Below, one piece after another: positions 2,460-57,010 of a DNA stretch of 64,000 bases. Numbering within the stretch: the first letter of the stretch is position 1; every line of letters begins with the position of its first letter. The DNA is taken from the sequence record OQ718158.1. The stretch is one strand, 5' to 3'. Under the pieces are notes generated by a model. It was given only the letters and a program-made list of their open reading frames with translations. It had not been told where the DNA came from and did no database searches. The DNA comes from Escherichia phage vB_Ec-M-J. A program made the position numbers and the translations under genes.

Positions 2460-2467
2460 AACACTAA

Positions 2468-25497: not shown

Positions 25498-25544
25498 AGA
25501 GTCCCCTCCTATAACGATGAACTATATATTCATAACCCATCTTT

Positions 25545-25568: not shown

Positions 25569-25597
25569 AATTCACAAAAACACTATTATCTAATACA

Positions 25598-25628
25598 AAA
25601 GAAAAAGCCAACTAAAAAAGTTGGCTTT
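25598..25628 (-). terminator. rho-independent terminator (minus strand) after ORF 25647-27395
   Basis: aaagccaac-taaaaaa-gttggcttt hairpin followed on the minus strand by a T-rich run. Confidence 0.65.
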
Positions 25629-25646
25629 AATTATTAATTTAAAATG

Positions 25647-27395: not shown

Positions 27396-27417
27396 AACAC
27401 CAGTTGTTAGTACTAGA

Positions 27418-31599: not shown

Positions 31600-32655
31600 T
31601 TAAGATAGGGTGATATATGTTATTGGTTGAGCAGCTTTCAATAATGCCCCTGCTGCGGTAGCAGTAACAATCGGATCGGCAATATCGATACGATACGCAT
31701 TATTAACAACATAAACTGCTCTAGTGATATATGTTTTTAAATCTTCGCCATTTTCCCCTGCTCCTGTGATTAGGATTTCGGTTCCAGCAGCTTTAGCATA
31801 TTGATTATCACCCCATGATACACCCAATGCTTCGATATAAGTTTGTCCTGCAACTGTTTGTCTAATTGTGTCATATCGACCAAAGAAAGAACCACCTACT
31901 GTAACAATAAATTTTCCACCTGATTGTTTATGGATAATTGTTCCTGCTGGGAAATATCTCCCACCAGGAAAAACATCATAAGGCACGTAATACTGTTCAA
32001 CTACAGGTATTACTACAGGTCCACGATGACCCGTTCCATCAATTGCAGTGGTTACTTTAAAGTTATTAGATGATTGGTCAATACGGTCAACATACATTCT
32101 TGAGAAACTATATTTTGATATGTTACAATCATCTTGAACAACACAATTAGTCCAGTTGGTATATGTATATTTAGAGCGAGTATATAAGCCCCCTCCTTCA
32201 CCTTCAGTTGCAAGGTGTTGTCCAATAACATCAAGTTCTTTAGTACTGATATTATTAAACTTGGAAGATGACGGCAATCCACGCCATTGAATTCTACTAC
32301 ATGTAATATTAGAAAGTTCAGTAGTATTTAGCCAATTATCAGAGCCTGAAGTATACACAATAATAGACGACTCAGGAATGTGGAGATTACATAATTTAAA
32401 GTTTCGTGGAGGACCAGCAAATTTACCAGATGTTACGCCCCAGTTAATAGAAACCATACGGTTAGTTACTGATGGATCATTTAATAGATGCCCAGATAGG
32501 CCATCAATAATAAAATCAACAGAACCATAAGTAATTACACCAGCGGTTGTCAAACCAGTACCAATTGATACCAACGTTGATGGATAAACTTCATTATTGA
32601 GAATTTTAAAGTCTTTACCCAACTCAACGTGAATACATTGACGGACATTGTACAA
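31600..32655 (-). CDS. probable C-terminal continuation of the tailspike/depolymerase (frameshift-split at an A8 run)
   Basis: Track start is TTG without a Shine-Dalgarno; frame open upstream into the A8 run (plus-strand T8 at 32677-32684); beta-rich composition. Confidence 0.6.
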   Translation of the reverse strand: MYNVRQCIHVELGKDFKILNNEVYPSTLVSIGTGLTTAGVITYGSVDFIIDGLSGHLLNDPSVTNRMVSINWGVTSGKFAGPPRNFKLCNLHIPESSIIVYTSGSDNWLNTTELSNITCSRIQWRGLPSSSKFNNISTKELDVIGQHLATEGEGGGLYTRSKYTYTNWTNCVVQDDCNISKYSFSRMYVDRIDQSSNNFKVTTAIDGTGHRGPVVIPVVEQYYVPYDVFPGGRYFPAGTIIHKQSGGKFIVTVGGSFFGRYDTIRQTVAGQTYIEALGVSWGDNQYAKAAGTEILITGAGENGEDLKTYITRAVYVVNNAYRIDIADPIVTATAAGALLKAAQPITYITLS

Positions 32656-32659
32656 GCGG

Positions 32660-33742
32660 TTATTTTTTATAACGAATTTTTTTTACATATTGTGAATCAT
32701 CAGCATTCACATCATAAGGACCAGAACCTGCAACACCGATACCAATACCCCAGTTTGAAAGAGGAATTGGTGCATTTGTACCATCTACGTTTTCAATCAA
32801 GTTACCTTCTATTACAAATCCGTCTGGGTAATGTGAGTTGACTACGTTCAATTCAATTGCATCACCATATATATCATGGATGTGGTTGTATGAATAACGC
32901 CCAACGGTCATTTTCTCACCAGTGCCTTGCTGAAGAACACCGTACTTACATTGTGTCATTTCATTAAAGCAGAAGTCGATAGTACCTGATTCAGTCATAC
33001 CTTGCATTAGAAATGCAGCAGTACTTGTAATATTAATAAATTTATTAAAATAAAATTTACCATTACCACCAAAGAATTTTAAATAACATCCTGTTAATGT
33101 TGCTTGTTGGATTGTACTATTCAGTACCGATACCATTGTGCCACCGTTACCAGTGATTGTACCACCAAACCATTGAATATCATTCAAATAAACAGCAGTT
33201 CTGATACGATAATTACCACCAGCTTGAATTTGGATTTTGTGTTCTTTAGCATAAACTGCACATGCGTTAACCGCCGCCGTGTCATCAGTGATGCCATCAC
33301 CTTTTGCACCAAACTCTTCTGGAGTTATGTAAAACTGTGCCTGTTGAAGTGTTCCTCCAGTAATAAGTCCGATATAATCAGCACCGTTAACACTGGAAAG
33401 GACATTTTTATTAATGTATAATGATTTTACCCAAACATCATTTGTTTTTGCAAAGATATCAACAATACCCTCAGAATCAACTTGAAAATAAGTGTTGTTA
33501 TTTTTACCAATGTCATTTGTTGGTGGAAGTACGCCAAATAAAGCATTTGGGTTATCTTCAAGATACCTAACGTTTACTGCGGAATCATCGTCATTAGGAG
33601 TTCCCACCTTAACAGGTAGGAACGTTTCGCCTAAAAAGTCTTTGATTGCGACAGAATCGTTTACAAAATTAATAGAAGCACCACGTTTACCCAACTTGAA
33701 TGTTGGCATCATGGTCCCTTCTAAATTGGAAAAAACTGCCAT
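32660..33742 (-). CDS. tailspike N-terminal part: shared anchor plus pectate-lyase-superfamily depolymerase motif
   Basis: ATG with AGAGGG Shine-Dalgarno; N-terminus MAVFSNLEGTMMPTF... shared with ORF 30686-31585; EEFGAKGDGITDDTAAVNA is the signature start of right-handed beta-helix pectate-lyase-type depolymerases; ends in the A-run ...YVKKIRYKK*. Confidence 0.75.
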   Translation of the reverse strand: MAVFSNLEGTMMPTFKLGKRGASINFVNDSVAIKDFLGETFLPVKVGTPNDDDSAVNVRYLEDNPNALFGVLPPTNDIGKNNNTYFQVDSEGIVDIFAKTNDVWVKSLYINKNVLSSVNGADYIGLITGGTLQQAQFYITPEEFGAKGDGITDDTAAVNACAVYAKEHKIQIQAGGNYRIRTAVYLNDIQWFGGTITGNGGTMVSVLNSTIQQATLTGCYLKFFGGNGKFYFNKFINITSTAAFLMQGMTESGTIDFCFNEMTQCKYGVLQQGTGEKMTVGRYSYNHIHDIYGDAIELNVVNSHYPDGFVIEGNLIENVDGTNAPIPLSNWGIGIGVAGSGPYDVNADDSQYVKKIRYKK

Positions 33743-40638: not shown

Positions 40639-40676
40639 GTTTATTAATTAGAGTGACTACTCATTTAGGAGAATAC

Positions 40677-42965: not shown

Positions 42966-42974
42966 AAAAGAAAA

Positions 42975-42997
42975 GGAGAGCATTTGCTCTCCTTTTT
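42975..42997. terminator. bidirectional rho-independent terminator
   Basis: ggagagc-attt-gctctcc hairpin flanked by an A-run and a T-run, between convergent genes. Confidence 0.75.
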
Positions 42998-42998: not shown

Positions 42999-45900
42999 TT
43001 ATTTAACTTCTAATAGATTTTTAATGTCAGTACCACTTATTTGCAAACTATCGGAGTAAACAGATAGTTCGATTGGATAACTGTTAACACTATAACGTTT
43101 TAGTAAATTAACTTTACCTAAGTTCAAGCCATTAAATGAATATGTCACATTCTCTTTAAAGTCGTGTTCTGCACTATACATTACCCCACAGAGTAAGTTA
43201 TTTGCAAAACGTACTTCAACTTTTTCAAAACCAAGAGAAATAATATCATTCATACTTGCACCAGCACCAGATAGAACATTATTAGTAACACTATATGGAC
43301 TAACTGAATCTGGTTGTGAAACATAAGTAGTATTTTCTTCACTGATAGCAGTAATGTTAGTTACTGTTCCACCAACTACACCAATATATGTATCACTAAC
43401 TAGTGGATATGCATATTCCCATACCCCTTCAGCATTCAGTACTGGTTGAATAATACCAACATCATACTCGAACACGTTAATTTCCACACTATCAGTCATT
43501 TTGGTTCTCACTAACTCACTAAGAACACCTGCACCAGTAATTGGTAAGTTATATCCGTTATCAATGGTAACACCATCAACTTCAAATATCTCGTTAGACA
43601 CTACCCAAACATCAACGTCATCTGGTGTAATTCCATCATTATAAGAACCACCATATAGTGTTGTGTCGTAGAATACTTCATAGTTCATTGCGTCGATAGC
43701 ATAGTTTCTATTTGTTTCATACAACTTAACACCATCAACCAAGAATTCTGGATCAGAAAAGGTTCTAATACGAACGATGTTCAATGCTAGAGGTATTGCT
43801 GGTTCATTCTGTTGTTGTTTAGTGATGTTATCATAACGAAGTACAACTCCAGTACTATCTAGTAGTTCTACAGTTCCGTTCGCAGTGTTTCTTACTGTGT
43901 ACAAGGTTGGTGTGGTGTCAGTTTTGATTTTTGATACACTCAAGATGGTTTCCCATGCATTGTTTTGGTATCTCACGTAATCTTCACCATCAGTTGTGAA
44001 TATCATAACCTTATCACCATCAGATAGGGTATTGTCAATTACTTCAGCTTCTGTATCACTAACAATTGATTTTATTTTATAGAAGTATTTTTCATCATAC
44101 TTACTGTATGATTTACTAATATCATTTTCAATCTTAGCGTAAGAAGGAATACTAACAATTGCTTCTGTTGTTTTATAAGGGTTGATGATAACCATACCTT
44201 CAGTTTTATATCTACTATTGTCTCTCAATTGAACTAGTGAAACACTATTGAATCCATAACCATCAACTGTGAAGCGAATCTGACCAATCTTTCTTCCTGA
44301 TGGGTTAATATCAGAAATGTCGATTATGTACGGATCTACTTCGTCACCTTCAACTTCCCATTTTAACTCGGAAGTTTGTGATTCAAGTGCTAGGTTATCA
44401 AATGCATTCATATCATCGTAGTACTTAGCATCGGTGATGCTATCTAGGATGTGCTGATAATCACTGTACATTGGGTTATTTCTATCAAGAGGTAAGTCAT
44501 CAAGATTTATTTCTGCCAATTGAACTAGTTGACCGTCAGTTATGAATTTGTCTTCCATGAAATCATCAATGCTTTGGTCATCTGGGATACTCTCGTATAC
44601 ACCATTAACATTAACATAAACATATTTTCGTGGCATCATAGTAAATGCATGAATATCAATAGGCATTCTACTTAATATTTCTTCAGCCTTTTCATAATGG
44701 TCGGTAGCATCTTTGTCATACAAACCACGCATACCAGACAATACATGAATTGCGTCATTGTAGAATCGTTGATTTCCATCTTCATCTACATGGCGATATG
44801 AATAAACACCATATTCAACTTCAAGTATAATTCTAACTTCATCATCAGTTGCAGTAGTATTGTTTTCTTTAATTAAAGAAACATACTTTTTATACAACTC
44901 ACTACTAACTTCAAAGTAACCAAAGTTATAATCAGTACTGGATGCATAACCAAACGGTAGTCTGGTACTTGGATTATCATCATAGGTTAACCCACTAAAT
45001 CCACATCCAACCTCATCATGAATTACTTCATCATCTGCACCTGTGTACAATTTCAAACGGTTAGAGAGTGTGTTATACTGAACATAATGATTTACGTCAT
45101 TAAACATTTCATTTTGTGTTGATTCTTTATATACACGATTCAACGTTTCTGTGAATTCTGCGGTTGCTACCAAATCATCTGCATGGTCTGCATACCATTG
45201 GTTAACACCGTAAGCAATCCCTAGAGTTACGTTCAATTCTGGGTAATACAATTGCATCTGATAAGCAACCAATAGGTCGAAATCTTCATCACTGTATTCT
45301 GGGAATGTATATTTGTAACGTTGTAATTCAAAATTACTAACAACATCTTGTGCATTAGATTGATATTTCTTATTCACTTCTTCCAATACATCAACACTTG
45401 CCAAATTATCATTTGGTTTACATTGAGTGTTGTCGTAGTGCATGATAACATCAATTTCTTGGAAACGGCGATTAGGTGTTACGAAATCACTTGGCAATTC
45501 ACCAACTTGCTCCCAACGTTGAGTTACCTCATTGAATTGAGCATATTCATAATCCCAAATGTCTTTTTCCGTTTTAACCCAAGTCCCATCTGCAAATATA
45601 TAGCCATTAGGATCTAAATCATTACACAAACCTTTAATTAAATCATCATCTGAAGTTTTCTGTTCAATCTGGGAACGAATCTTAGTTCTATATGGTTTAA
45701 CTTCTTCAAAGTACTCAACGATTTGATTAATCAAGTTGTCGTTGGAATAGTTCTGTACTAATGATTGTTCTAAACCTACAATATAAATGTAAGATGTTTT
45801 GAATACCCAATCAACAACGCTTTGTTCTACGTGAACATACTTAACCATATCAAACACAATTTCACTCTGATGTAAGTCGAATGAGTTCTTCAATAAAGCT

Positions 45901-48900
45901 AGTGCTTTACGAACGTTAATCTCACGATTACTCAACGAACCATTAGCATCACGAACTGTATAGTCAGCGTATAACATATCATTCAATTCAACTGTACTAT
46001 TTTCACGACCAATTGCTTTCCAGTAAACTGAATCACGTGATTGTGCTTTAATGTACAATGTCCAGATGCCATCAACATCTGTAATTCTGATAATGTCACC
46101 AACTTGATAGTTCTTAGTGTTTGCATCTTCTAGGCTGGATTCTTGTGTATATGCAGTATTTTTATCGTAGCCAATATCATACCAATCTGCTAGTGACCAG
46201 TACTGGGTCATGTCCAATGAAGTTCCTAGTGCTTCAACATAGTCTGATTGTTTAATCATTTTCTGTTGACCTTCACCACGGTTTTCCAATGTAATGGTAA
46301 CCACACTACCAGCACTTGATGGACTATTCATTAGATGAATATAACCATTAGCATCAATATGCACAAAATATACAGAGCTAGTTGATAGTGGGTTAGGTAA
46401 TACACCACTAGTACTTACTAGTACTGCGTCGTTTTCTTTGAACTTGTCACTTTCAGGTGCAATGACTAATTCACTATTGTAAGTTAGTACACGATATGAT
46501 ACTTCATTCGGGTTAACTTCAGTAGTTTTAACATTAAACACTTCGTCCATTAGAACAGTGTTAGTTGTTATATTCTGTGAGCGATAATAGTTATTTGCAC
46601 TTTCTACAAAGTTTCTACGAGCTTCAATTACATCTTGGAACCAAGTCTTATTAGAACCTAAACCGTTTGGTACTAAAGGATATAGTAAATCAATAACAGT
46701 TCCTGATTCAGTAGTTTCTTGACCAATCATAGAATTCCACATAGAAGTCCAGATTGATGGATTGAAGTTATAGCTATCACCTTCTTTACATAATTGATAC
46801 TGGTCATGTTTAATAACTTCAGTATTATCCATGTAATAAGAAACAGTTAAAATACTTGTGTCATCGTTGACTTCAAATTGCATATTACTTAGAATGAACG
46901 AGCTTTCATTGATTGGTGCAAACCAAGGAATGTTAAGCTGTGCTGGTTCTTTAATAATACGAGCAATATCAGTACAAGATTTAGTTCTGGAATGCAATGG
47001 TGGTACATAGATTGTATCACGAACCCAGAAATAGTATTTTGTAACATAAGTATCAGTTGTGCTATCATATTCTAAGAACGTACTATAATTATCTTCCAAT
47101 GCGGTTCCGCTTGGTAGGTACATAGTGTTGTTTTTATTTTTGTTAGCAACGTCTTTGCAGTATTTGTCCCAGTTATATGGTTCAACTGGTGAACATACCC
47201 ATTCAAGAACATCAACAGTACTGTGCGGTAGCAATCTGCCCCAGTTATAACGTTTATATTCATTTGTTGCATCAACATCCACATTACCATCAGCATCATA
47301 GATTGCACGAGTGTAATCTAAGTAGAAAGCAGTGCTGGTGTTCCACCAAACCTGACCAACTTTATCAGCACCCCATGCTTGAATCAATTCACCATTGCTG
47401 TTGTATTGTGCTGGGTCAACTGGAGATGTGTAGGTAACGTTCTGCATCGCTGCACCAGGAATAACACCGTTGATTGGGTCAAACACGTTTAGGTACAACG
47501 CAGTAATGTTAGTACGCTCATCATATGTGGTTGGGCGGTCAAACAAAGTACTTTGTGGAGCTTTAAAACTATATTTTCTGTCAATGTATTCCTGACGCAT
47601 CTCTTCAGTACTGAATCGTGAAACATAACGATACAAGCGTGGGCGAGTATCAGGATCAGTGAAGTCAATAGTGATTGAAGTGTCAAACGGAACTACCATA
47701 ACTCTAGGGTCATTACCCGCAGTATAATATTGACTTTCTATAGTCAATGTATCTGGCATAAAGTTAGTTTCATCAACAAAGTAATAATAATCACCATCAT
47801 TTAGTGGGATATCATCACTTAGAGTTACTTTACAGAATTGTTCTGCATATACATCGGTATTTTCAATTGGAACGATAGAGAGCATCTCAACTTCAGTGTC
47901 TACTAGTTCGAAAATATTCCACAAATCATTACCATCTTTAAACATCCATACAGAATCTGGGATTTCACCACTGTTATTCATATAATTGATACGATCATTA
48001 TATGCAGTACTGAAATCTTTAGTAACGTATGAAATTTCATCTAGTGTTACAGGACCAATGTCTGGAAGTTGGATATTCTCACTTCTTCCACTACGCATTG
48101 GGAATGAAAACTTACCATTTGGACGAGTAATCCAGCGTGAGTCAACCCCTTGTTCACCGTAATAAACAATACCATTACCAGTACCATTTGATGTAGCATT
48201 AACATCAAACGAAACCATCTGTGGTTGTTGTTTAAATTGGTCATTGATTAGTTTAAATTGTAGATTTTTCTTACCATTGATATTACCATAAGTACCAATC
48301 TTAAATGCCCATTCCTGAAGTGCTTTATATTCATCAGTGTCGTAAGATTTAGAAACGCGTAGTACTTTTTCCATTACTTGGTTAGTACCTTTGTCATGAA
48401 TGAATCCTTTATAGAAATCAACACGACTAACATCACTACTAATCATACGTTGTAGATAATCACGAGTTTGATAGCCAATCAAGTGATTTGATAACTCTTG
48501 AAGCTGAACATCACTCACAGGAGTTTCACTATTATAATATAATTCAAAATCAGTTACTAATTTTTCAAATGATGGTAAAGTTCCTGCTTCTAGGATAATG
48601 AAACCAGGTGCTTGTAGGCGACCAGTCCATGACCCAGTAATGTAACCATACATTTTAATCAATTCTTGAATAGCACCATAAGTTGGTTGGTAAATGTAAT
48701 CACCAAAGATAGTTTTATCATCAAAAACAACTGCGTGTTCATATGAACTTAGGCTCAAACGAATCAACGCCATACGTTTTTGTGATTCAGTTGTAGTTCT
48801 CACTGTGAATACGTTACCGATACGCGAAGTTTCGATTTCATATTGACGGATACCTTGGTTTTCATCATCGAGTAGTGACCAAACACCACCACTATTCTGT

Positions 48901-51900
48901 GTAACAGATTGAACTGAACCAAAATCCGCACCAAATTTAGCATTAGCTGCACTTGGAGTACAGGAGATGAACTCACCAGTACTTAAATTATTCTGACTCC
49001 AAATAACAAAGTCTTTAGCAATAGTTGTCCAGTCTTGTTGAGTACCACTATCATTTACATCTTCAAAAATCCAGCCATGTTCTTTTAGATATTCACCATA
49101 TCCACAAATGAAAGTATAAACTTCTTGGTATGTATTGAATATTTTACCATATTCTAATGTACCTTCAGATTTCCATTCATTGTAATGAACAACAGTTCTG
49201 TCTTCCAATTTAAGAGTTACTTTTCTTCCATTTTTAACTGGAATTTTATATTTAAATTTAGCACCAACTAAATCATAACCATCAATTTGATATGCACTAC
49301 CATTCCAAGTAATTTTTACTGCACTCATTTGCTCATCGCGAATGTTATTAGAACGAACTAGACCGATAGTTTGGTTTTCTTGTGAAATCAAACCGAAAGA
49401 TTTAGCAGTGAATGTCAATTGGTCTGCTTTAGTAAAGCCACCAATTTTGTGAGCGACATTGACATAAGAAGAACGAACAACGTCACCGTATTTGGTGGTA
49501 ATGTTCTTATTCTGATACATCAAATAGTCACTAACAAACATTTGATAACCGATAGTACGGGTGTTTTTCTCACCATGTACTAATGTAGTACTGTCAAAGT
49601 TTAGACGCTTACGGGTTTCACCATAAAGGAACTGTGAACCATCAGTATAAACTGGTTTAAGGTTATCATTACGGGTATCCCAGTAATAGTTTGCAAACTG
49701 TGCTGGTTTTGCTTTGTATAGAAGAAGCATTTGGTCATAAGCAAACATCGCAGTGTTCATGTAAGTGAATTCCATGTCACCCATGTCACCATAAGACCAC
49801 GGTTCTGCACGATGATCTAAATTACCACTAACAAGACCTAAAACTTCAGGTGCAATATACTCAACTTCACAAATATCAATACCAGTACTGGTTTTCTCGC
49901 CAGTCTTAGTGATTTTAAATGGCTGTACACCGAAACGCTTGTATTTGTCATATTGACCACGGCGTTCACCTGACAAAATAGTACCAGTACTGCTATCACC
50001 GATAGTACCATCAATATCCCACAATCCACTTGGGACCAAATCACCATTTTCATTCATTACTAGTGCTTCATACACATAAACAACATCACCCTCACGTTCA
50101 CCAACTTGAACTGCGGTTGGTTCGTATTCTTGGTTCCACCAAGTAGGACGTTGAGAGAAGCCCATCATTTCCCACGGATGGGTTGCTGGACGATATGTGC
50201 CATATTGGTCAGTATAGATTGCACGCCATGAACCACGAGCAGGAATTTCAGTACGTTGACCATCAACAACATAATAACTACCAGTATAGTTCCAAGTTCT
50301 CCAGTTATTTGCATCATAATCATGAGTACTGTTACTAATGCCATTGGTTGCTGTGAAGTTAATGTAACCACGTAGTAATAGAGTTTTCTTTTCTTCTGCA
50401 CTATAATCAGTACCAGTGAAATATGGAGTTGGGAATAGGTCTTCACTGTTTAGTACTGGTTTATAATCAATATCCTTGAAAGTAAGATCAATACTATTAA
50501 AGATACGATTTTCCAATTCAAAAACTACGTCATCCATTTTATCAACACCATTGATAACACGGTATGCTTTTGAAATAATACCAGTATGACTGATATTATA
50601 ACAGCTAGATTTACTACCAGCAGTTAAGAATGTTGCTTTTTGTGGTGTATAAGCTTGCAAAATACCCAAGAACTGTGGAGTTGGTGGGACAAATGCACGA
50701 ATAAACCCAGCAGTGCTTGCAACGTTGTCATAGTAGAATGGGAATGTACTATCACGTCCCATATTAATAGCTGTTAGAATCGCATCTACGATGTTTGATG
50801 CACTATTACCAAGAAAAGCACTTGGGTCTTCTTCATACAAACGAAGCATTTGAGTGTTGAACTTGTTAATGAAGCGGAAGTATTCTGCTTGCATAAACAT
50901 GATTGATTCAAACAAATCAATATCTTCATTAGCGGTATGTGCCATTAGTGGTAACATGGACGCTTCGTTTTGAATAATTTTAGTGCCTACACCATTATTA
51001 ACCAAACCAGCAGCCAAACGTTCTTCGTAATTGTTAAAGTCATCAGCAGAACCAGATGTAATATTCTTTTGAATAATATCTTGGAAGTGCAGGGTGTAAT
51101 CACCTTGGTTGATGTATTCAATGTTTGAATTATATGGGTTATTTTGTAGATTAATTGGAACTTCATATGCACCCAACTCTTTATTAGGAGTGATAGTGCT
51201 ACTATAAGTTCTGATTTGTACAACAGAATCTTCATCCAAATCAACAGAGCTATCAATTGTAATACTTTGTACTTGATTATTAACTACAGTTTTTGTGTAT
51301 TCTTTTATTTCCACACCATCAACAACTAGTTCGATAATATCATCAGAATTATCTAGTACTTTTTGTGCCAATTCAAATGTATGATTGTACTTAACGCTTT
51401 GTACCCCATCACCAACGATAACATGCCAATCAAGATATGTTTCACGTTCTGCTTTGTAATATTGATAAGTTCTGTCAACTTCAATTACATAAGCATACAT
51501 TCCTTCAACTGGGTCTTTGAAACTTTCCATGTCATAAACAGTACTGAACACGCGGAACATTACTGTACGTTCAACCTGTGGAGTTTGTTTAACATATTGT
51601 TTGGAGTATTCAGTACTACGAACCCAATCAGTTTCTAGGTTCATTGTATTACCTTCACCAATTACGTTATAGTAATATAGTCCATCAATTTCAACTTCCA
51701 CACCCAAATGCTCGTAAGTATAACGAGTTGATTGTAGGAAATTCTCATATGTGTAATAATTGTAATCACCTAGTTCAATGTTATAACCATAAACGCTATC
51801 AGTTGCATAATTATAGTTAATTTTAAAACCAAATAGTGAAGAACCAGTAAAAGTACTTGATGGATAGGTAGTAGTGTTGTTTAGTTTAACACCATTACGG

Positions 51901-53000
51901 TCATACAATTGGAATTGTGGAAATACGTTCACAGAAGTTTTAGACTGTGCTTGAATCCAATGAGAACCGTCCCAATACATGGAACTGTTACCAAATTCAT
52001 TACCTTTGATAATAAGAACTACGTCACCATCTTGTGGTTCACCACTCGGACGGCTTTCAGATTCTTCGTCTGGGTCTAATGCTAGACCATACACACGTGT
52101 TCCATCTTGCATACGTTTAACATATACTTTATAAATTCGGTTGTTTTCACCATTGTTACCAATACTGGTGAAAAGAATACGCATACCATCTTGTGGAATA
52201 ATACCATCAATACGTATACCGCTGTTAATATCTTTTTGTACGATATCTTCAGGTTTAATAATATCAGAGAACAAATCAACTGTCCCACGGAATTTAGTAC
52301 CGTAGTTCATTAGTTCGATATTTTTATTGTATTCGATAATTGGTGCACGAGCACGAACAAAACGGGAATCTTGCATTAGTTCTTCAGTTAGGATAGTACC
52401 ATCTTCTAAAGTTTCACCTAATGTGTACCAGAAGTTTTGTAGTGACCAAGTGTTACCATTTTCTGCACCACGTTCCATTACAATATAATCTGGAGTTGTG
52501 ATATTATAGCTATTCTTGGAATCCCATAGGTATGAACTGTAGTTGTTCATTTTATTTGGGTTAATTGGTGGGGTCCATGAATAGAACTTACCATTAAACA
52601 AACGGCTTTCATTTTCGGTTAGTGCACCGTAATGATTCATATAGCCAACTAGATCATCATAAAATTGAATTGAACGAATGCTGGAGTTATCATTTCTTGA
52701 GACATACGCAGTGGACAACTGATATAGTTGACGTGCGACTGTTGACTCGTGTAAGAAGATGTTCCCTGCTGCTGCCGGAGAACCCATGTCACCAATGTAG
52801 CCGTCAACTAATTCGTTTTCAGCCGGATTAAACCATTGTTGGATAACATCATCACTGACTTTCTGAATATCTTCTAAGCCTTGCATCCACTCAGGCAATC
52901 TTTTTATGAAAAGCTTCTTCTGTACTGCTTCAGCCATCTGTGTAGGTTGAAACTTAAAATTATTAGTCATTTTTGGACTCCATATAATTCGTTCATTCAT
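42999..53000 (-). CDS. giant virion protein (3333 aa); probable baseplate/fibre protein in the gp7 position
   Basis: Uninterrupted 10-kb ORF directly downstream of gp25-like and gp6-like genes; Y/N/W/T-rich beta-type composition. ATG 53000 lacks a Shine-Dalgarno; in-frame ATG 52970 has GGAG. Confidence 0.75.
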   Translation of the reverse strand: MNERIIWSPKMTNNFKFQPTQMAEAVQKKLFIKRLPEWMQGLEDIQKVSDDVIQQWFNPAENELVDGYIGDMGSPAAAGNIFLHESTVARQLYQLSTAYVSRNDNSSIRSIQFYDDLVGYMNHYGALTENESRLFNGKFYSWTPPINPNKMNNYSSYLWDSKNSYNITTPDYIVMERGAENGNTWSLQNFWYTLGETLEDGTILTEELMQDSRFVRARAPIIEYNKNIELMNYGTKFRGTVDLFSDIIKPEDIVQKDINSGIRIDGIIPQDGMRILFTSIGNNGENNRIYKVYVKRMQDGTRVYGLALDPDEESESRPSGEPQDGDVVLIIKGNEFGNSSMYWDGSHWIQAQSKTSVNVFPQFQLYDRNGVKLNNTTTYPSSTFTGSSLFGFKINYNYATDSVYGYNIELGDYNYYTYENFLQSTRYTYEHLGVEVEIDGLYYYNVIGEGNTMNLETDWVRSTEYSKQYVKQTPQVERTVMFRVFSTVYDMESFKDPVEGMYAYVIEVDRTYQYYKAERETYLDWHVIVGDGVQSVKYNHTFELAQKVLDNSDDIIELVVDGVEIKEYTKTVVNNQVQSITIDSSVDLDEDSVVQIRTYSSTITPNKELGAYEVPINLQNNPYNSNIEYINQGDYTLHFQDIIQKNITSGSADDFNNYEERLAAGLVNNGVGTKIIQNEASMLPLMAHTANEDIDLFESIMFMQAEYFRFINKFNTQMLRLYEEDPSAFLGNSASNIVDAILTAINMGRDSTFPFYYDNVASTAGFIRAFVPPTPQFLGILQAYTPQKATFLTAGSKSSCYNISHTGIISKAYRVINGVDKMDDVVFELENRIFNSIDLTFKDIDYKPVLNSEDLFPTPYFTGTDYSAEEKKTLLLRGYINFTATNGISNSTHDYDANNWRTWNYTGSYYVVDGQRTEIPARGSWRAIYTDQYGTYRPATHPWEMMGFSQRPTWWNQEYEPTAVQVGEREGDVVYVYEALVMNENGDLVPSGLWDIDGTIGDSSTGTILSGERRGQYDKYKRFGVQPFKITKTGEKTSTGIDICEVEYIAPEVLGLVSGNLDHRAEPWSYGDMGDMEFTYMNTAMFAYDQMLLLYKAKPAQFANYYWDTRNDNLKPVYTDGSQFLYGETRKRLNFDSTTLVHGEKNTRTIGYQMFVSDYLMYQNKNITTKYGDVVRSSYVNVAHKIGGFTKADQLTFTAKSFGLISQENQTIGLVRSNNIRDEQMSAVKITWNGSAYQIDGYDLVGAKFKYKIPVKNGRKVTLKLEDRTVVHYNEWKSEGTLEYGKIFNTYQEVYTFICGYGEYLKEHGWIFEDVNDSGTQQDWTTIAKDFVIWSQNNLSTGEFISCTPSAANAKFGADFGSVQSVTQNSGGVWSLLDDENQGIRQYEIETSRIGNVFTVRTTTESQKRMALIRLSLSSYEHAVVFDDKTIFGDYIYQPTYGAIQELIKMYGYITGSWTGRLQAPGFIILEAGTLPSFEKLVTDFELYYNSETPVSDVQLQELSNHLIGYQTRDYLQRMISSDVSRVDFYKGFIHDKGTNQVMEKVLRVSKSYDTDEYKALQEWAFKIGTYGNINGKKNLQFKLINDQFKQQPQMVSFDVNATSNGTGNGIVYYGEQGVDSRWITRPNGKFSFPMRSGRSENIQLPDIGPVTLDEISYVTKDFSTAYNDRINYMNNSGEIPDSVWMFKDGNDLWNIFELVDTEVEMLSIVPIENTDVYAEQFCKVTLSDDIPLNDGDYYYFVDETNFMPDTLTIESQYYTAGNDPRVMVVPFDTSITIDFTDPDTRPRLYRYVSRFSTEEMRQEYIDRKYSFKAPQSTLFDRPTTYDERTNITALYLNVFDPINGVIPGAAMQNVTYTSPVDPAQYNSNGELIQAWGADKVGQVWWNTSTAFYLDYTRAIYDADGNVDVDATNEYKRYNWGRLLPHSTVDVLEWVCSPVEPYNWDKYCKDVANKNKNNTMYLPSGTALEDNYSTFLEYDSTTDTYVTKYYFWVRDTIYVPPLHSRTKSCTDIARIIKEPAQLNIPWFAPINESSFILSNMQFEVNDDTSILTVSYYMDNTEVIKHDQYQLCKEGDSYNFNPSIWTSMWNSMIGQETTESGTVIDLLYPLVPNGLGSNKTWFQDVIEARRNFVESANNYYRSQNITTNTVLMDEVFNVKTTEVNPNEVSYRVLTYNSELVIAPESDKFKENDAVLVSTSGVLPNPLSTSSVYFVHIDANGYIHLMNSPSSAGSVVTITLENRGEGQQKMIKQSDYVEALGTSLDMTQYWSLADWYDIGYDKNTAYTQESSLEDANTKNYQVGDIIRITDVDGIWTLYIKAQSRDSVYWKAIGRENSTVELNDMLYADYTVRDANGSLSNREINVRKALALLKNSFDLHQSEIVFDMVKYVHVEQSVVDWVFKTSYIYIVGLEQSLVQNYSNDNLINQIVEYFEEVKPYRTKIRSQIEQKTSDDDLIKGLCNDLDPNGYIFADGTWVKTEKDIWDYEYAQFNEVTQRWEQVGELPSDFVTPNRRFQEIDVIMHYDNTQCKPNDNLASVDVLEEVNKKYQSNAQDVVSNFELQRYKYTFPEYSDEDFDLLVAYQMQLYYPELNVTLGIAYGVNQWYADHADDLVATAEFTETLNRVYKESTQNEMFNDVNHYVQYNTLSNRLKLYTGADDEVIHDEVGCGFSGLTYDDNPSTRLPFGYASSTDYNFGYFEVSSELYKKYVSLIKENNTTATDDEVRIILEVEYGVYSYRHVDEDGNQRFYNDAIHVLSGMRGLYDKDATDHYEKAEEILSRMPIDIHAFTMMPRKYVYVNVNGVYESIPDDQSIDDFMEDKFITDGQLVQLAEINLDDLPLDRNNPMYSDYQHILDSITDAKYYDDMNAFDNLALESQTSELKWEVEGDEVDPYIIDISDINPSGRKIGQIRFTVDGYGFNSVSLVQLRDNSRYKTEGMVIINPYKTTEAIVSIPSYAKIENDISKSYSKYDEKYFYKIKSIVSDTEAEVIDNTLSDGDKVMIFTTDGEDYVRYQNNAWETILSVSKIKTDTTPTLYTVRNTANGTVELLDSTGVVLRYDNITKQQQNEPAIPLALNIVRIRTFSDPEFLVDGVKLYETNRNYAIDAMNYEVFYDTTLYGGSYNDGITPDDVDVWVVSNEIFEVDGVTIDNGYNLPITGAGVLSELVRTKMTDSVEINVFEYDVGIIQPVLNAEGVWEYAYPLVSDTYIGVVGGTVTNITAISEENTTYVSQPDSVSPYSVTNNVLSGAGASMNDIISLGFEKVEVRFANNLLCGVMYSAEHDFKENVTYSFNGLNLGKVNLLKRYSVNSYPIELSVYSDSLQISGTDIKNLLEVK

Positions 53001-53017
53001 TTGATTTATTTATGATA

Positions 53018-53042
53018 TAAAAAAGACGTTCCGAAGAACGCC
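53018..53042 (-). terminator. rho-independent terminator with UUCG tetraloop (minus strand)
   Basis: Minus-strand ggcgttc-ttcg-gaacgtc followed by tttttt, between the gp6-like stop and the giant gene start. Confidence 0.65.
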
Positions 53043-53050
53043 TTAATGTG

Positions 53051-56000
53051 TTATGAACCAATGTTAATGTTACTCTTAGCCAAGGAATTGACTATCTGTA
53101 CGTTATCAACTGATGCAGTACTTAAGAAAATCTGGTCAGAACGTGAAGGGATTTCAAATAGTGAGCCAAATTTAGAGTTAGGGTTTTGAGCTACGATAAC
53201 AATAGTACTAATATGTCGTCCTAATTGGGAGTGAATGTATGTACACAAGTCTGTGTAATAGAAACTTTCACCAAAATCCCAGTTGTCAACATTAAAATAC
53301 TCGTTAGTTAGTGCTACGACATTTTGACGAATTTCATCATCACTCATTGTACTGTTAGGCAATTTGACGACTTTAAAATCTGCTTTATAATCTTCAGCAG
53401 CACTCGCACCAAATAATGGTAGATATTCTGCACTATGCCAAATAATACTGTCACTGATGACTATTTTTTGTTCAACTTCTTTAAAAATGTCTTTCAATTC
53501 AACAGATGTTGGCGGTTTAGGCATATTACCTTGTGTTCCATTCTTCAACCATACATCAACTTCAGTTTTGTATGAATTGGTTAATACATACATGTCAATC
53601 AAGTTTGTTCTACTTGGGTCAATGCGATTATCATCTGGTGCATAATGTTTCCAGTGGAAATCAATACCAGTTCTTGCATTCGTTTTTACGGTATATTGTG
53701 AAGTTACATCTTTATAACCATAATAATCTAACTTTTGGTTAACATCAGCATTAGTACCGATATTAACAATAGCACGATAAAACGCAAGTTCAGGAGTTGC
53801 AGCAGTTGTATCATCAGAATAGGTCAAGTTCTCAATTAATTGGTTTAAACGGTCATTATTATTACCAACAGTTTGTTCAATGAAGTAATATTTACCATCA
53901 TAGTTAAAGCCAACTATAAAGCCTGAACCTTTACTATAGATACCACTCAATGTTGTTGAGCGAATAGCATTGTTGCGAACAAATTCACTTCTCTTATACG
54001 CATTAGTTTCTGCAAGTGCCTGATCCATTGTATAAGCCCATGAAGAATCAAGAATAGTGAAAGTATCATTCGGTAATGACAGTACTGATATAGTGAAATC
54101 ATCGTTTTCTTGGAAAACCAATATACCACCATATTTAACTGAATCTTCACCAGTCCAATTTGGTACAATTTCTCTGAATTGATTAGGTTCTAGTGGGATT
54201 CCATTACTATCAACGTTTTCAGAGGTGATAACCACACGAGAACCATCAAGATACCCGTTTTCTTGTTGAATTGTGTCATAAATTTGGAAATCTATGTTAC
54301 TTGTCAACCCAGCATTACTATTGCTTGTGGTATTTGATGATAAAATTTCAATTTTGTCACTTTGAACACTACCAGTACTAATATCAGTTATCTTTTTAGA
54401 AGAAACGAAGTAAAAACGAACTTTATCACCACCAACGAACACATATTCAACGCCATTCGCATCAAATTCCCAGGTTTCAGCAGTATATTTGATGTTAATC
54501 ATAACAAGAACTTCATTTCCATTATAAGAAATAGTATCTTCATCAGTACTGATTTCTAATGGAATCCAAGAAGTTGTTTCTTTATCATGAATAATAACAA
54601 AATCTGTCTTTTTATCAAGCATTGCAGCGATTGCTTGCACTTCGACACTATTAAAACGTGTTCTGTATTGTAAAATGTACTCTTGTGCTTGCATATTTGA
54701 TGAAACTGAAGTACTTAGAACGTAATATCCATTATCAAGAACACTAACAATACTAGCCCACACAGTAGTTCCGGCATTTGAAAACTTAATCAACGTACCA
54801 ACTTGATAATTTCCGAATACGTTACCTGTTGCCCCCATAATACGACCATACGTATTAGTTGCGTAATTAGAATTGTATTCAGGTGTCCATTTTTGTTGAA
54901 TTTCAATACCAATTGTATTCGGTGGATATGCTTGATAACGTTGGATTACAGCATTCTCACCAATCAATGGCTGAATATTATCAATTACAATACTAGCATT
55001 TGTTTTGGTAGTTGGTAATTGTAAAGATTTATTAAATTGTGTGTTTTCTTGATACATTGAACCATCATCACTAAACACATCAGTGTTTTGATACTTACCA
55101 GTTGGATCATTAATATCAATGAATCGTGACTGTCCACTATATAAACGGTTAATTGCTTTAGATTTAAGAACTGTGTTACCCAAACTCAACGGAGCAATGT
55201 TATAGTCTTCACCGTTAACAAAACGGTTTTGAGTGTAATACATTTGTGGAGCACGAGCCTTAATTTGTTCAATTGTTTCTGCACTTTGTGCACGATCTGA
55301 TTCATATTGCAATGTGAAACGAATATCCAAAGTACTGGATTCATAGCTTGATTGTGTTTTGGTTCTATAGGTGTATTTTACACTTTTGTTCTGGATTTCA
55401 GACGTTTTAATGTTGTATGTTTCACCATTACTAACACGATACCATACACGATACGTCCCACGAGGAACAACACCACTACGAGAATCAGGATACTTAATAG
55501 TAATCTGGTCTTTATCACGAGTTGTGACAGCAAAGATTGTTTTTAGTTGACGGTTAACAGTATTGTATGCGATACTTTCCATAGATGGAACTTTGGTCCA
55601 TTTAGTACGTACAATACCATCTTCGTTGATTTCCTGAACCCAAACATCAGTTTCGTTGATATTATCTACGTTGATGTCTTGGATACGGTTTTCTTCACGA
55701 ATATTATATTGGTAATCTTGGTATGTCAATGTCCCTTGAACAAAATAAACGAAGAAACCAGTATTTGGTGAACTAAATCCGTTACCATCATTCTGATAAA
55801 CGATATATTTTTGCTCTTGTGGTTCAGGGTGACGCTCTTCAACACCAACTGCTGTAATATCAGGGTTGACAACTTCAAATGTCATCGATTCACCATTAAC
55901 TGTAGCTGTGAATGGAAGACTTGGTGCTGACATTGGAATTGTATTCATACGATATAGCTGACGAGAAACACCATTGATATCGATACGTTTAACCGGATTA

Positions 56001-56512
56001 CCAAACTGGTTAGTACTGACAAATGAACTGTTCATAACTAGAATGAAGTTCTCATACCAGTTTGTGTCCATTGGGTCATTCCAACGAATGATTTTATCCT
56101 TAAGTGATTCGTTAAAACTATTACGAACGTCTTGGTTGGTTTTTATTTCTGTTAATTTAGCAACTGCACGACCTGGATATGAACGGCGTGGAGAGTAAGA
56201 AATCATTTTTGCGAGTTTCAGTACTGATGCACGACGAGTAGCAGTATCTAGGAAGTTCTCACGAGTGTTTAAATCCATACGGAATGCTAAGTTCTGTCCT
56301 AGCATAGAAATGGTATCTAGAATAAAGATGAACTGGTCGTTTTCGATCCAGTCGTTGAAAGAATCTGGGTACGTAGCACGTAGATAGTCAATCATACTTT
56401 GACGGATTGTATCAAAGTCATAAGCTGTTAGATTGATCTTATAAAAGCTTTCATATACTTGAGTCCAATCTTCACCAGCGTATAAATTTGATTGCCTTTT
56501 TTGTTGTGACAT
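53051..56512 (-). CDS. baseplate wedge protein (T4 gp6 / P2 gpJ-like), 1153 aa
   Basis: AAGGAA Shine-Dalgarno. N-terminal region NLTAYDFDTIRQSMIDYLRATYP... resembles the gp6/gpJ N-terminal domain (T4 gp6 ...FLDYDFEGSRLNVLCDLLAYNT..., recalled from memory). Sits directly downstream of the gp25-like gene. Confidence 0.7.
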   Translation of the reverse strand: MSQQKRQSNLYAGEDWTQVYESFYKINLTAYDFDTIRQSMIDYLRATYPDSFNDWIENDQFIFILDTISMLGQNLAFRMDLNTRENFLDTATRRASVLKLAKMISYSPRRSYPGRAVAKLTEIKTNQDVRNSFNESLKDKIIRWNDPMDTNWYENFILVMNSSFVSTNQFGNPVKRIDINGVSRQLYRMNTIPMSAPSLPFTATVNGESMTFEVVNPDITAVGVEERHPEPQEQKYIVYQNDGNGFSSPNTGFFVYFVQGTLTYQDYQYNIREENRIQDINVDNINETDVWVQEINEDGIVRTKWTKVPSMESIAYNTVNRQLKTIFAVTTRDKDQITIKYPDSRSGVVPRGTYRVWYRVSNGETYNIKTSEIQNKSVKYTYRTKTQSSYESSTLDIRFTLQYESDRAQSAETIEQIKARAPQMYYTQNRFVNGEDYNIAPLSLGNTVLKSKAINRLYSGQSRFIDINDPTGKYQNTDVFSDDGSMYQENTQFNKSLQLPTTKTNASIVIDNIQPLIGENAVIQRYQAYPPNTIGIEIQQKWTPEYNSNYATNTYGRIMGATGNVFGNYQVGTLIKFSNAGTTVWASIVSVLDNGYYVLSTSVSSNMQAQEYILQYRTRFNSVEVQAIAAMLDKKTDFVIIHDKETTSWIPLEISTDEDTISYNGNEVLVMINIKYTAETWEFDANGVEYVFVGGDKVRFYFVSSKKITDISTGSVQSDKIEILSSNTTSNSNAGLTSNIDFQIYDTIQQENGYLDGSRVVITSENVDSNGIPLEPNQFREIVPNWTGEDSVKYGGILVFQENDDFTISVLSLPNDTFTILDSSWAYTMDQALAETNAYKRSEFVRNNAIRSTTLSGIYSKGSGFIVGFNYDGKYYFIEQTVGNNNDRLNQLIENLTYSDDTTAATPELAFYRAIVNIGTNADVNQKLDYYGYKDVTSQYTVKTNARTGIDFHWKHYAPDDNRIDPSRTNLIDMYVLTNSYKTEVDVWLKNGTQGNMPKPPTSVELKDIFKEVEQKIVISDSIIWHSAEYLPLFGASAAEDYKADFKVVKLPNSTMSDDEIRQNVVALTNEYFNVDNWDFGESFYYTDLCTYIHSQLGRHISTIVIVAQNPNSKFGSLFEIPSRSDQIFLSTASVDNVQIVNSLAKSNINIGS

Positions 56513-56614: not shown

Positions 56615-57010
56615 TTACAAAGATGATACAGAATAGGTAGCCATTCTGTTGTTACTTCTTGCATCAAAAACTATAGTTAATTCTTCAAGAGTATTGAGAA
56701 CAACATATTCAAGTACTATATCCATCTGATAACCGTACTCAATTCTTGATATTTGAAGTTTCTTTAAGCTTAAACGTGGGTCCAAGCTAATAATTCTACG
56801 GGCATCTGCTTCCAAAAGGTTGATTGTATTATAACCATCCAATTCAAATAGCAAATCCCACGCAATGAACCCATAATCAGCATCAAATGCACGTTCACCT
56901 TTTTTTGTATTGAAATGATTCATTAAATCCTGACGAACCAATTCACTGTCATACAATGTTTCAGTTCTTCCAACTACTGGAGTTGAAAAACCTTTAAAAA
57001 CAATTGCCAT
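56615..57010 (-). CDS. baseplate wedge protein (T4 gp25 / P2 gpW-like)
   Basis: 131 aa with AAGGAA Shine-Dalgarno; size and position fit gp25/gpW; ...GERAFDADYGF... resembles the gp25 ...GSRPFDPEFGC... core. Confidence 0.7.
   Translation of the reverse strand: MAIVFKGFSTPVVGRTETLYDSELVRQDLMNHFNTKKGERAFDADYGFIAWDLLFELDGYNTINLLEADARRIISLDPRLSLKKLQISRIEYGYQMDIVLEYVVLNTLEELTIVFDARSNNRMATYSVSSL

What the first reader, a model, noticed from the sequence alone, without database searches (positions are those of the whole stretch)
42999..53000. Uninterrupted 10-kb ORF encoding a 3333-aa virion protein
A single 3333-aa ORF follows the gp25-like and gp6-like genes, the position occupied by gp7 or gpI in T4- and P2-type baseplates, but it is roughly three times longer than T4 gp7. 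It may be a fusion of a baseplate wedge protein with a fibre or enzymatic decoration. The start is ambiguous (ATG 53000 without a Shine-Dalgarno versus ATG 52970 with GGAG). An ATAAATA late-promoter-like element lies just upstream, after a strong terminator.
Basis: partly seen in the sequence, partly recalled or inferred. Interest (0 to 1): 0.5.

Follow-up and report, generated by a model that had tools for sequence, protein, structure and literature searches.

The report
Giant baseplate protein of jumbo coliphage
The 10-kb gene is real and encodes the largest virion protein of a Rak2-like (Asteriusvirus) jumbo coliphage. It is a roughly 3,300-residue baseplate protein sitting where ordinary contractile-tail phages encode the much smaller gp7/gpI wedge protein, it is conserved at giant size in many uncultivated jumbo phages, and it resembles no solved protein.

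Summary
In detail: one ORF on the minus strand, 42999..53000, 3333 codons (chance about 1e-102).

The window is 99.8% identical to Escherichia phage Ecwhy_1 (Asteriusvirus). The orthologues phAPEC6 gp245 and CBB_236 were detected in virions by mass spectrometry.

The gene follows gp53-like, gp5-like hub, lysozyme, gp25-like and gp6-like genes. This order holds in four fetched relatives (RaK2, GAP32, PBECO4, WPEC3) and in three distant metagenomic contigs. In two of those contigs tail-fibre genes come next.

The true start is very probably ATG 52970 (3323 aa). In RaK2 and GAP32 the upstream ATG is followed by an early stop codon.

The family is large: 1,620 clusters at 50% identity. Nearly all members are 3,000-6,300 aa and share a collinear core (residues 11 to about 2460). 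The C-terminal 870 aa evolve faster.

Best reading: it fills the gp7 role in the wedge and forms most of the baseplate periphery as one chain. The "recent fusion with a fibre or enzyme" idea found no support. The gene is already known; the role assignment is an inference.

The parts
42999..53000 (-).
42999..52970 (-). Preferred coding sequence, 3323 aa, starting at ATG 52970 (protein begins MTNNFKFQP).
   Evidence: The PHROG 10938 profile starts at residue 11. Independent homologues start at query residue 11. In RaK2 and GAP32 the upstream ATG runs into a stop codon after 2 and 10 codons, while MAN(D/E)FKF follows GGAG.
52978..52981 (-). Shine-Dalgarno GGAG, 7 nt upstream of ATG 52970.
   Evidence: The same GGAG-spacer-ATG layout is seen in RaK2 and GAP32.
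53007..53013 (-). ATAAATA late-promoter-like motif (CATAAATA). It lies 36 nt before ATG 52970 and 6 nt before ATG 53000.
   Evidence: Published as the putative late promoter in CBB and GAP32 (PMC5259590). Present at the same place in RaK2 and GAP32.
53023..53044 (-). Intrinsic-terminator-like hairpin (9 pairs, TTCG loop, T run) between the gp6-like gene and the giant gene.
   Evidence: RaK2 and GAP32 carry a hairpin of different sequence at the same position.
42970..42997 (.). Bidirectional terminator-like hairpin (11-12 pairs) between the giant gene's stop and the convergent AAA+ protease gene.
52524..52925 (-). Residues 26-159: the first conserved block, followed by an insertion hot spot in distant homologues. 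Predicted helices at residues 19-57 have low monomer confidence. Candidate gp6-binding (core-bundle-type) segment; this role is inferred.
   Evidence: Comparison: the N-terminal 107 residues of A-1(L) gp32 form the wedge helical bundle (PMC10966104).
45621..52970 (-). Residues 11-2460: the collinear conserved core shared by all giant homologues. It is predicted to consist largely of beta-rich domains with helical linkers.
48102..48704 (-). Residues 1433-1633: among the most conserved stretches of the family (EH..FD..TIF.D.IY.P, FYKGFI..KGT, EEWAF), yet predicted as low-confidence helices (pLDDT 27-50). Candidate inter-subunit interface; this role is inferred.
43002..45620 (-). Residues 2461-3333: the faster-evolving C-terminal region. 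It is collinear within Rak2-like phages and not alignable in distant homologues. It was not modelled.
53051..56512 (-). gp6-like baseplate wedge protein, 1153 aa, the presumed partner.
   Evidence: The orthologous neighbours in distant contigs carry PF27647 (DUF8360).
56615..57010 (-). gp25-like sheath-initiator / wedge protein, 131 aa.
   Evidence: PF04965

Best explanation
The gene encodes the giant baseplate protein of Rak2-like jumbo phages. It is transcribed late from its own ATAAATA promoter and translated from ATG 52970 (3323 aa, about 380 kDa).

Inferred mechanism. Its N-terminal segment of about 150 residues joins two copies of the 1153-aa gp6-like protein in each of the six wedges. 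That is the role played by gp7 in T4, gpI in P2 and gp32 in A-1(L). The remaining roughly 3,100 residues are a chain of mostly beta-rich domains with helical linkers. They form most of the baseplate periphery as a single polypeptide, where T4 uses gp7 plus gp8-gp11.

The faster-evolving C-terminal 870 residues probably face outwards. I propose they provide the lineage-specific docking surface for the tail-fibre network.

Shown: the gene is real, is conserved at giant size, and lies next to the gp25-like and gp6-like genes; its orthologues are in virions; no enzyme domain or fibre repeat was detected.
Inferred: the gp6 contact, six copies per virion, and fibre docking.
For: - Virion presence. 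Orthologues were detected in purified virions: phAPEC6 gp245 (381.9 kDa, 17 peptides; PMC7247149) and CBB_236 (21 peptides, next to the CBB_237 wedge protein; PMC5259590).
- Gene order. On the minus strand the order is gp53-like, 751-aa protein, gp5-like hub with lysozyme, lysozyme, gp25-like, gp6-like, giant gene.
- Conservation of that order. WPEC3 shows the full order. PBECO4, RaK2 and GAP32 show at least gp25-like, gp6-like, giant. Two metagenomic contigs whose giant protein is only 24-28% identical keep the whole module and continue with tail-fibre genes: Gp34_trimer/Peptidase_S74 in one, Collar in the other. A third keeps gp25-like, gp6-like, giant up to the contig end.
- Elimination. 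The module has named counterparts for the hub (gp5), gp25, gp6 and gp53, but none for gp7. The giant gene is the one unassigned gene at the wedge position. The 243-aa and 751-aa genes of the module also have no assigned role.
- N-terminal block. In canonical wedges the peripheral subunit contributes its N-terminal ~100 residues to the helical bundle (A-1(L) gp32 residues 1-107; PMC10966104). The first conserved block here is residues 26-159, with predicted N-terminal helices of low monomer confidence.
- Precedent. The gp7-like part of wedge proteins is described as a hotspot of re-engineering that binds fibres (PMC8894135).
- Surface exposure. Two distant homologues scanned carry CBM5/12 and FG-GAP hits; in P0096 these fall in stretches that have no counterpart in this protein. 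This fits a surface-exposed protein.
- Own promoter. A terminator followed by ATAAATA precedes the gene in three genera.
Against: - The N-terminal 130 residues, where a core-bundle helix would be, are modelled with low confidence. Their fold is therefore untested.
- The gp6 contact, the copy number and the location within the baseplate were not measured in any relative.
- The C-terminal 870 and residues 2094-2460 were not modelled, so an unrecognised activity there cannot be excluded.
Confidence: 0.6

Rival explanations
1. It is an accessory scaffold of the outer baseplate or fibre network and not the wedge subunit. It would be bolted onto a wedge made by the gp6-like protein alone, or with another small unrecognised gp7-like protein, and would serve mainly as a platform for the branched fibres.
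For: No gp7-type homology was found at sequence or fold level. [quoted passage not shown] It might therefore carry the gp7 function itself. Weak domain hits are to fibre or tailspike adaptor domains.
Against: Strict adjacency to the gp6-like gene is kept in very distant lineages, with overlapping gene boundaries in one of them. The N-terminal block is always at the extreme N-terminus. No other candidate wedge partner lies at the wedge position of the module.
Confidence: 0.22
2. One reading: a wedge protein recently fused to a fibre or to an enzymatic (depolymerase or lysin) decoration.
For: Its size is three times that of gp7. The C-terminal region is more variable. Distant homologues carry CBM5/12, FG-GAP and Laminin_G_3-type inserts.
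Against: The whole core of about 2,450 residues is collinear in all the giant relatives examined, and all 120 listed hits of the first search are 2,780-5,638 aa. The short proteins in the representative search that I checked are cut or frameshifted genes on short contigs. The C-terminal 864 aa are found at only one place per genome, inside this gene, in 71 phages of 9 host genera. No Pfam or NCBIfam family matched the protein or its segments significantly (the only Pfam hit at E <= 1 was PAS_9, E 0.11), and PHROGs matched only its own family. There are no internal repeats, and no convincing enzyme or beta-helix match among the fold hits for residues 11-2093.
Confidence: 0.1
3. It is a tail-internal protein: a tape measure or an ejected giant protein.
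For: It is very long and is present in virions at low peptide coverage.
Against: It is predicted as beta-rich globular domains with many invariant Trp, Gly and Pro residues, not a long helix. It lies after gp6 rather than before the hub. The 751-aa protein just upstream of the hub gene is a possible tape measure by its position alone. Carbohydrate-binding inserts in homologues argue for external exposure.
Confidence: 0.04

Closest known systems
Orthologous 'largest ORF' / virion structural protein of Rak2-like jumbo phages (PHROG 10938; PBECO4 YP_009150852, phAPEC6 gp245, CBB_236, GAP32_230, RaK2 ORF070)
   Same: Full-length match to PHROG 10938 (E = 0, profile positions 1-3324). Nucleotide identity is 82-99.8% within Asteriusvirus. 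The C-terminal region is 37-49% identical at protein level in other genera. The genomic slot is the same. Two members were detected in virions by MS.
   Different: Nothing of substance: this is the same gene. In the records and papers examined here the products are called hypothetical, structural or virion structural proteins, with no assigned role.
T4 gp7 (baseplate wedge subunit, 1032 aa) and its small counterparts (P2 gpI, A-1(L) gp32, T6SS TssG)
   Same: The gene lies directly after the gp25-like and gp6-like genes. The product is a virion protein. An N-terminal conserved block with predicted helices sits where gp7-type proteins have their bundle-forming segment. The gp7-like part is known to be the variable, fibre-binding periphery of the wedge (PMC8894135).
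   Different: It is 3.2 times longer than T4 gp7. There is no detectable sequence, profile or fold similarity. In T4 the periphery is built from six further proteins (gp7 to gp12 together total 3002 aa). No homologue of those appears in the CBB authors' table of T4 core homologues, and the giant family's profile matches none of them.
CBA120 TSP4 N-terminal region, described as an anchor domain plus T4 gp10-like XD docking domains
   Different: Only one small domain matches and the scores are weak. TSP4 is a trimeric tailspike with an enzymatic beta-helix. No such fold appeared among the fold hits for residues 11-2093, and residues 2094-3333 were not modelled.
Baseplates of chimalliviruses (phiKZ, Goslar)
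   Different: There the wedge and periphery are assembled from many separate proteins (seven wedge proteins plus gp32/gp220 spokes). Here a single giant chain appears to provide most of that mass.

Membership tests
gp7-type wedge subunit (T4 gp7 / P2 gpI / A-1(L) gp32 / TssG) | Gene lies immediately downstream of the gp25-like and gp6-like genes in the baseplate module | tested here: met
   Window order. The same adjacency holds in WPEC3, PBECO4, RaK2 and GAP32 and in three distant metagenomic contigs.
gp7-type wedge subunit (T4 gp7 / P2 gpI / A-1(L) gp32 / TssG) | Detectable sequence or profile homology to a known gp7-type protein or family | tested here: not met
   Pfam, NCBIfam: no significant family. 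PDB sequences with phmmer and with a 23-sequence profile: 0 hits at E <= 10. hmmsearch --max against T4 gp7: E 0.18 in an 11-protein database. hhalign against T4 gp7: probability 0.8%.
gp7-type wedge subunit (T4 gp7 / P2 gpI / A-1(L) gp32 / TssG) | Fold similarity to a solved gp7-type chain | tested here: inconclusive
gp7-type wedge subunit (T4 gp7 / P2 gpI / A-1(L) gp32 / TssG) | N-terminal segment forms the helical core bundle / trifurcation unit with two gp6-type subunits; one copy per wedge, six per virion | not testable with these tools
   This needs multimer modelling, cryo-EM or quantitative MS. The only support is indirect: predicted N-terminal helices at residues 19-57 and the conserved block 26-159.
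gp7-type wedge subunit (T4 gp7 / P2 gpI / A-1(L) gp32 / TssG) | Structural component of the mature virion | not testable with these tools
   Not tested for this phage. Orthologues were found by MS in phAPEC6 and CBB virions (PMC7247149; PMC5259590).
Rak2-like giant virion structural protein (PHROG 10938) | Full-length profile match | tested here: met
   E = 0, 5472 bits, protein residues 11-3330 against profile positions 1-3324 of 3324.
Tail fibre / tailspike (depolymerase) proteins | Fibre repeats, a trimerisation or chaperone module, or an enzymatic beta-helix domain | tested here: not met
Tape measure protein | Predominantly alpha-helical, and encoded upstream of the hub genes | tested here: not met
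   Both models are largely beta-strand domains with some helical stretches. The gene lies downstream of the gp6-like gene.

The most novel reading that the evidence does not exclude
A single roughly 3,300-residue chain, six copies per virion, replaces the multi-protein peripheral baseplate of T4 (gp7 through gp11) using domains with no solved structural relative. This giant wedge protein would then be a hallmark of a very large, mostly uncultivated clade of T4-related jumbo phages (1,620 clusters at 50% identity, proteins up to 6,281 aa). The highly conserved but low-confidence helical segment (residues 1433-1633) would be a new kind of inter-wedge or gp6 interface.
Probability: 0.3. Interest if true: 0.55.

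Novelty: new variant of a known kind. Interest (0 to 1): 0.38.

Why it matters
Baseplates decide when a contractile tail fires and where the fibres attach. All well-understood ones build their periphery from several modest proteins around a conserved (gp6)2-gp7 core.

If this giant chain is the gp7 equivalent, it is an extreme case of the known plasticity of that subunit. It would also give a functional name to a gene left as 'hypothetical' or 'structural protein' in the Rak2-like genome records examined here, and to more than a thousand metagenomic protein clusters.

Practically, it marks the likely docking partner for the branched, depolymerase-bearing fibre systems of Rak2-like phages. It also fixes the start codon annotation.

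It is not a surprise at the level of principle. The gene is already in the databases, its product is known to be in virions, and giant structural proteins are expected in jumbo phages.

Tried and rejected
1. Direct homology to T4 baseplate proteins. hmmsearch --max with the family profile against T4 gp5-gp15 and hhalign against each T4 protein gave only noise.

2. PDB by sequence, with the single protein and with a 23-sequence profile: no hits even at E 10.

3. Pfam on the whole protein and on six segments at E <= 1, and NCBIfam: nothing apart from a chance PAS_9 hit at E 0.11.

5. The search for homologous proteins with the C-terminal 864 aa alone returned nothing, not even the query's own cluster. 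I treat this as a failure of that search. tblastn against phage genomes was used instead.

6. Looking for natural split versions. Two of the short proteins from the representative search, P0124 and P0237, lie on 7-9 kb contigs. One has an overlapping downstream ORF and the other runs to the contig end. They are probably fragments, not gene fissions.

7. Alignments with 50 and 90 full-length homologues were too large for the tools, so 22 were used.

8. The PBECO4 upstream region is identical to the window's and therefore said nothing about the start codon. RaK2 and GAP32 were informative.

9. Tape-measure and whisker-fibre readings were rejected on predicted secondary structure and gene position.
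Full report
**Observation**

With the window's composition (about 37% G+C; stop-codon frequency 0.068 per codon on that strand), an open frame of this length has a chance probability of about 1e-102. Opposite-strand and alternative-frame ORFs inside it are all shorter than 94 aa. A self-BLAST finds no internal repeats.

**Origin of the window**

The 10-kb gene is 99.8% identical to Escherichia phage Ecwhy_1 and 99.0-99.7% identical to eight other coliphages (BF17, Turkey3, WPEC3/5, fEgEco12, EC.P1, CMSTMSU, TH47). It is about 82% identical to PBECO4, 121Q, phAPEC6 and Sharanji, and lower in Salmonella, Yersinia, Cronobacter, Serratia, Klebsiella and Xanthomonas jumbo phages.

These are the Rak2-like jumbo myoviruses. 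Ecwhy_1 and fEgEco12 form a species of the genus Asteriusvirus (PMC13070987). The deposited annotations call the product 'hypothetical protein', 'structural protein' or 'virion structural protein'. The CBB paper uses 'the largest ORF' only as a landmark for aligning genomes (PMC5259590).

**Is it a virion protein?**

Yes, in relatives. phAPEC6 gp245 (381.88 kDa, 17 unique peptides, 7.6% coverage) is listed directly after gp244 'baseplate wedge' (131 kDa) in the virion proteome (PMC7247149). CBB_236 (21 peptides, 7.7% coverage) is listed next to CBB_237 'baseplate wedge' (PMC5259590).

**Genomic context**

In the direction of transcription the module reads:
- 243-aa virion protein
- 104-aa gp53-like protein (PF11246, weak; PHROG 7145 'baseplate wedge subunit')
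- 751-aa virion protein
- 887-aa gp5-like hub (Phage_base_V, DUF2345, Phage_lysozyme)
- 162-aa lysozyme
- 131-aa gp25-like protein (PF04965)
- 1153-aa gp6-like protein (PHROG 219/10646)
- the giant gene

A convergent AAA+ 'ATP-dependent protease' gene follows on the other strand. Then come a 502-aa virion protein and a gp15-like tail completion protein (PF16724).

Fetched relatives keep this arrangement. WPEC3 shows the full order. PBECO4, RaK2 and GAP32 show at least gp25-like, gp6-like, giant, protease.

More tellingly, two metagenomic contigs whose giant protein is only 24-28% identical (P0080, 3826 aa; P0096, 4559 aa) have the same series: about 257 aa, about 100 aa, 750-894 aa, hub, gp25, gp6-like (about 1130-1150 aa, PF27647 DUF8360), giant. 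The giant gene there is followed directly by tail-fibre genes (Gp34_trimer and Peptidase_S74; Collar). A third contig repeats gp25, gp6-like, giant. In P0080's contig the gp6-like and giant genes overlap by 8 nt.

This is the position of gp7 in T4 (6-7-8-...-12) and of gpI in the P2-type order V-W-J-I (the P2 order is from general knowledge). The CBB authors' table of T4 core homologues lists gp4, gp6, gp13, gp15, gp17, gp18, gp20, gp21, gp23, gp25 and gp53 among morphogenesis genes, with no gp7 to gp12. The giant gene is thus the one unassigned gene at the wedge position of the module. The 243-aa and 751-aa genes of the module are also without an assigned role.

**The family**

A word-indexed search found 236 clusters. 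All 120 listed are 2,780-5,638 aa. An exhaustive profile search with residues 11-460 found 1,620 representatives (50% clusters) at E <= 1e-3 and 780 at E <= 1e-30. Most of the listed ones are 3,000-6,281 aa, and in most the match starts within the first ~20 residues. Two of the shorter proteins were checked. Both lie on 7-9 kb contigs: one runs to the contig end and the other has an overlapping downstream ORF, so they look like fragments.

BLAST and MAFFT maps show a collinear conserved core from residue 11 to about 2460. Variable linkers or insertion sites lie near residues 159, 450-590, 950-1040, 1700-1825 and 2200-2250. The C-terminal ~870 residues do not align in distant members.

Distant members carry extra carbohydrate-binding or adhesion-type modules. 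In the two scanned, CBM5/12 and FG-GAP hits were found, and in P0096 they fall in stretches with no counterpart in this protein. Precomputed Pfam lists also include Laminin_G_3.

Within Rak2-like phages the C-terminal region is collinear but diverges roughly 1.5 to 2 times faster than the core. By tblastn it is found once per genome, always inside this gene, in 71 phages infecting nine host genera.

The giant size is therefore ancestral and maintained, not a recent fusion. The C-terminus is not a swappable receptor-binding cassette.

**Homology and fold tests**

- Pfam and NCBIfam found nothing significant for the whole protein or six segments, and PHROGs matched only its own family.
- phmmer and a 3,163-position family profile against all PDB sequences found nothing at E <= 10.
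- The family HMM and hhalign against T4 gp5, 6, 7, 8, 9, 10, 11, 12, wac, 15 and 53 gave only noise (best E 0.037 in an 11-protein database; hhalign probabilities below 1%).

AlphaFold2 with a 23-sequence alignment gave usable models.

Residues 11-960 (mean pLDDT 76):
- 11 to ~140: weakly predicted helical or mixed N-terminus
- ~140-610: confident, largely beta-strand region (pLDDT about 75-95)
- 632-745: helical
- the end of the model is poorly predicted

Residues 894-2093 (mean pLDDT 71):
- 894-1063, 1223-1423 and 1633-2053: confident domains
- 1433-1633: a poorly predicted helical stretch (pLDDT 27-50), even though it contains some of the most conserved columns of the family

**Start codon and regulation**

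After the gp6-like stop (53051) comes a hairpin with a T run (53044-53023). Then comes CATAAATA (53014-53007), then 6 nt, then ATG 53000. Then come 30 nt containing GGAG (52981-52978), a 7-nt spacer, and ATG 52970.

ATAAATA occurs only 12 times in the window against 25 expected, and TATAAATA twice against 7 expected. Most copies lie between genes, roughly 20-60 nt upstream of a Shine-Dalgarno sequence plus ATG on the same strand. The same motif was published as the putative late promoter of structural genes in CBB and GAP32. These phages encode a gp55-like late sigma factor (PMC5259590; WPEC3 annotation).

The evidence for ATG 52970:
- ATG 53000 would lie at or next to the expected transcript start.
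- The PHROG profile and many independent homologues begin at residue 11.
- In RaK2 the equivalent upstream ATG reads ATG-ATA-TAA. In GAP32 it opens a 10-codon mini-ORF ending in TAATG. In both, the conserved protein (MAN(D/E)FKF...) begins after GGAG.

ATG 52970 (3323 aa) is therefore the start, with high confidence. PBECO4 is identical over this stretch and uninformative.

The hairpins in RaK2 (GGCGTCCAC/GTGGACGCC) and GAP32 (GGGCATC/GATGCCC) differ in sequence from the window's (GGCGTTC/GAACGTC) but keep the stem. This supports a functional terminator. A terminator followed by an own late promoter between the gp6-like and giant genes may set their expression ratio (inference). A bidirectional hairpin (42970-42997) closes the gene against the convergent protease gene.

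**Interpretation**

The best-supported account is that this is the gp7-slot subunit of the wedge, hugely enlarged. In solved wedges the peripheral subunit inserts its N-terminal ~100 residues into a helical bundle with two gp6-type chains (A-1(L) gp32 residues 1-107; PMC10966104). The rest of that subunit is the exposed, fibre-binding, evolutionarily plastic part (PMC8894135).

Here the first conserved block (residues 26-159) contains predicted helices that a monomer model cannot place. This is as expected for a segment that folds in a hetero-oligomer, but it is not proof.

The remaining ~3,100 residues would form the periphery. For scale, T4's gp7 to gp12 total 3002 aa. Rak2-like phages lack detectable homologues of those proteins, so one chain may do the structural work of several (inference). 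The variable C-terminus and the carbohydrate-binding inserts in relatives fit an outward-facing surface. Docking of the fibre network (for example the RaK2 gp528 anchor, whose baseplate partner is unknown; PMC10253068) is a reasonable but untested role.

Two candidate interfaces deserve testing: the N-terminal helices and the conserved low-confidence helical segment 1433-1633.

Membership in the gp7 family is not established. Position is met, sequence homology is not met, the fold test is inconclusive, and the interaction and copy number are untestable here.

**Verdict**

This is a real, already catalogued gene with an improved start-site call and a positional, by-elimination functional assignment. 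Its 'fusion with a fibre or enzyme' suggestion found no support. Interest is moderate. The size, the breadth of the family and the absence of any structural relative make it a good cryo-EM target, but nothing here overturns expectations for jumbo-phage baseplates.

Noticed in passing
window 31600-33742 (-), frameshift near 32684: The tailspike-like 'colanic acid degradation' gene (PHROG 6117) is one 713-aa CDS in phage WPEC3. In the window it is split into two ORFs (360 aa at 32660..33742 and 351 aa at 31600..32655) by a single extra base at gene position ~1059, next to a run of A. This is either a homopolymer sequencing error or a genuine inactivation or frameshift of a depolymerase-type fibre protein.
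   Followed up: partly
window 40653-42965 (+): A 770-aa AAA+ 'ATP-dependent protease' (ClpA-like in the RaK2 and GAP32 annotations; PHROG 4871) is encoded convergently, immediately after the giant gene. The same placement is seen in WPEC3, PBECO4, RaK2 and GAP32. It is absent at that place in two distant relatives, where fibre genes follow. It could be a dedicated unfoldase or chaperone for the 380-kDa protein; this is pure speculation.
   Followed up: no
window 57026-57514 (-) and 57552-60215 (-): The 162-aa stand-alone lysozyme gene just after the hub gene matches positions 727-885 of the same PHROG profile (13211) that the 887-aa gp5-like hub protein matches in full. It looks like a duplicated copy of the hub's lysozyme domain. 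It has its own TATAAATA 18 nt upstream.
   Followed up: no
window 53000, 63570; L008 ~10535; L009 ~10590: An ATG sits 6-7 nt after the ATAAATA motif upstream of the giant gene in the window, RaK2 and GAP32. It also sits upstream of the 243-aa structural gene (motif starting at 63583). In RaK2 and GAP32 it opens only a 2- or 10-codon mini-ORF. It may mark the late transcript start or a tiny leader ORF.
   Followed up: partly
window-wide: ATAAATA and TATAAATA are about two- to three-fold depleted relative to shuffled sequence (12 against 25; 2 against 7) and lie mostly between genes upstream of structural genes. This is consistent with selection against spurious late promoters inside genes.
   Followed up: partly
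window 19531-30567 (-): Three large paralogous tail-fibre genes (1988, 582 and 1049 aa) all match PHROG 4549, in several stretches each. They are candidate components of the fibre network that the giant protein might anchor.
   Followed up: no
window 53051-56512 (-); L004, L005, L007: The gp6-like partner is itself enlarged (1153 aa against 660 aa in T4). Its distant orthologues (1127-1229 aa) carry PF27647 (DUF8360), and one has a faint CBM5/12 hit. The Pfam copy used here did not report that family for the window's protein.
   Followed up: no
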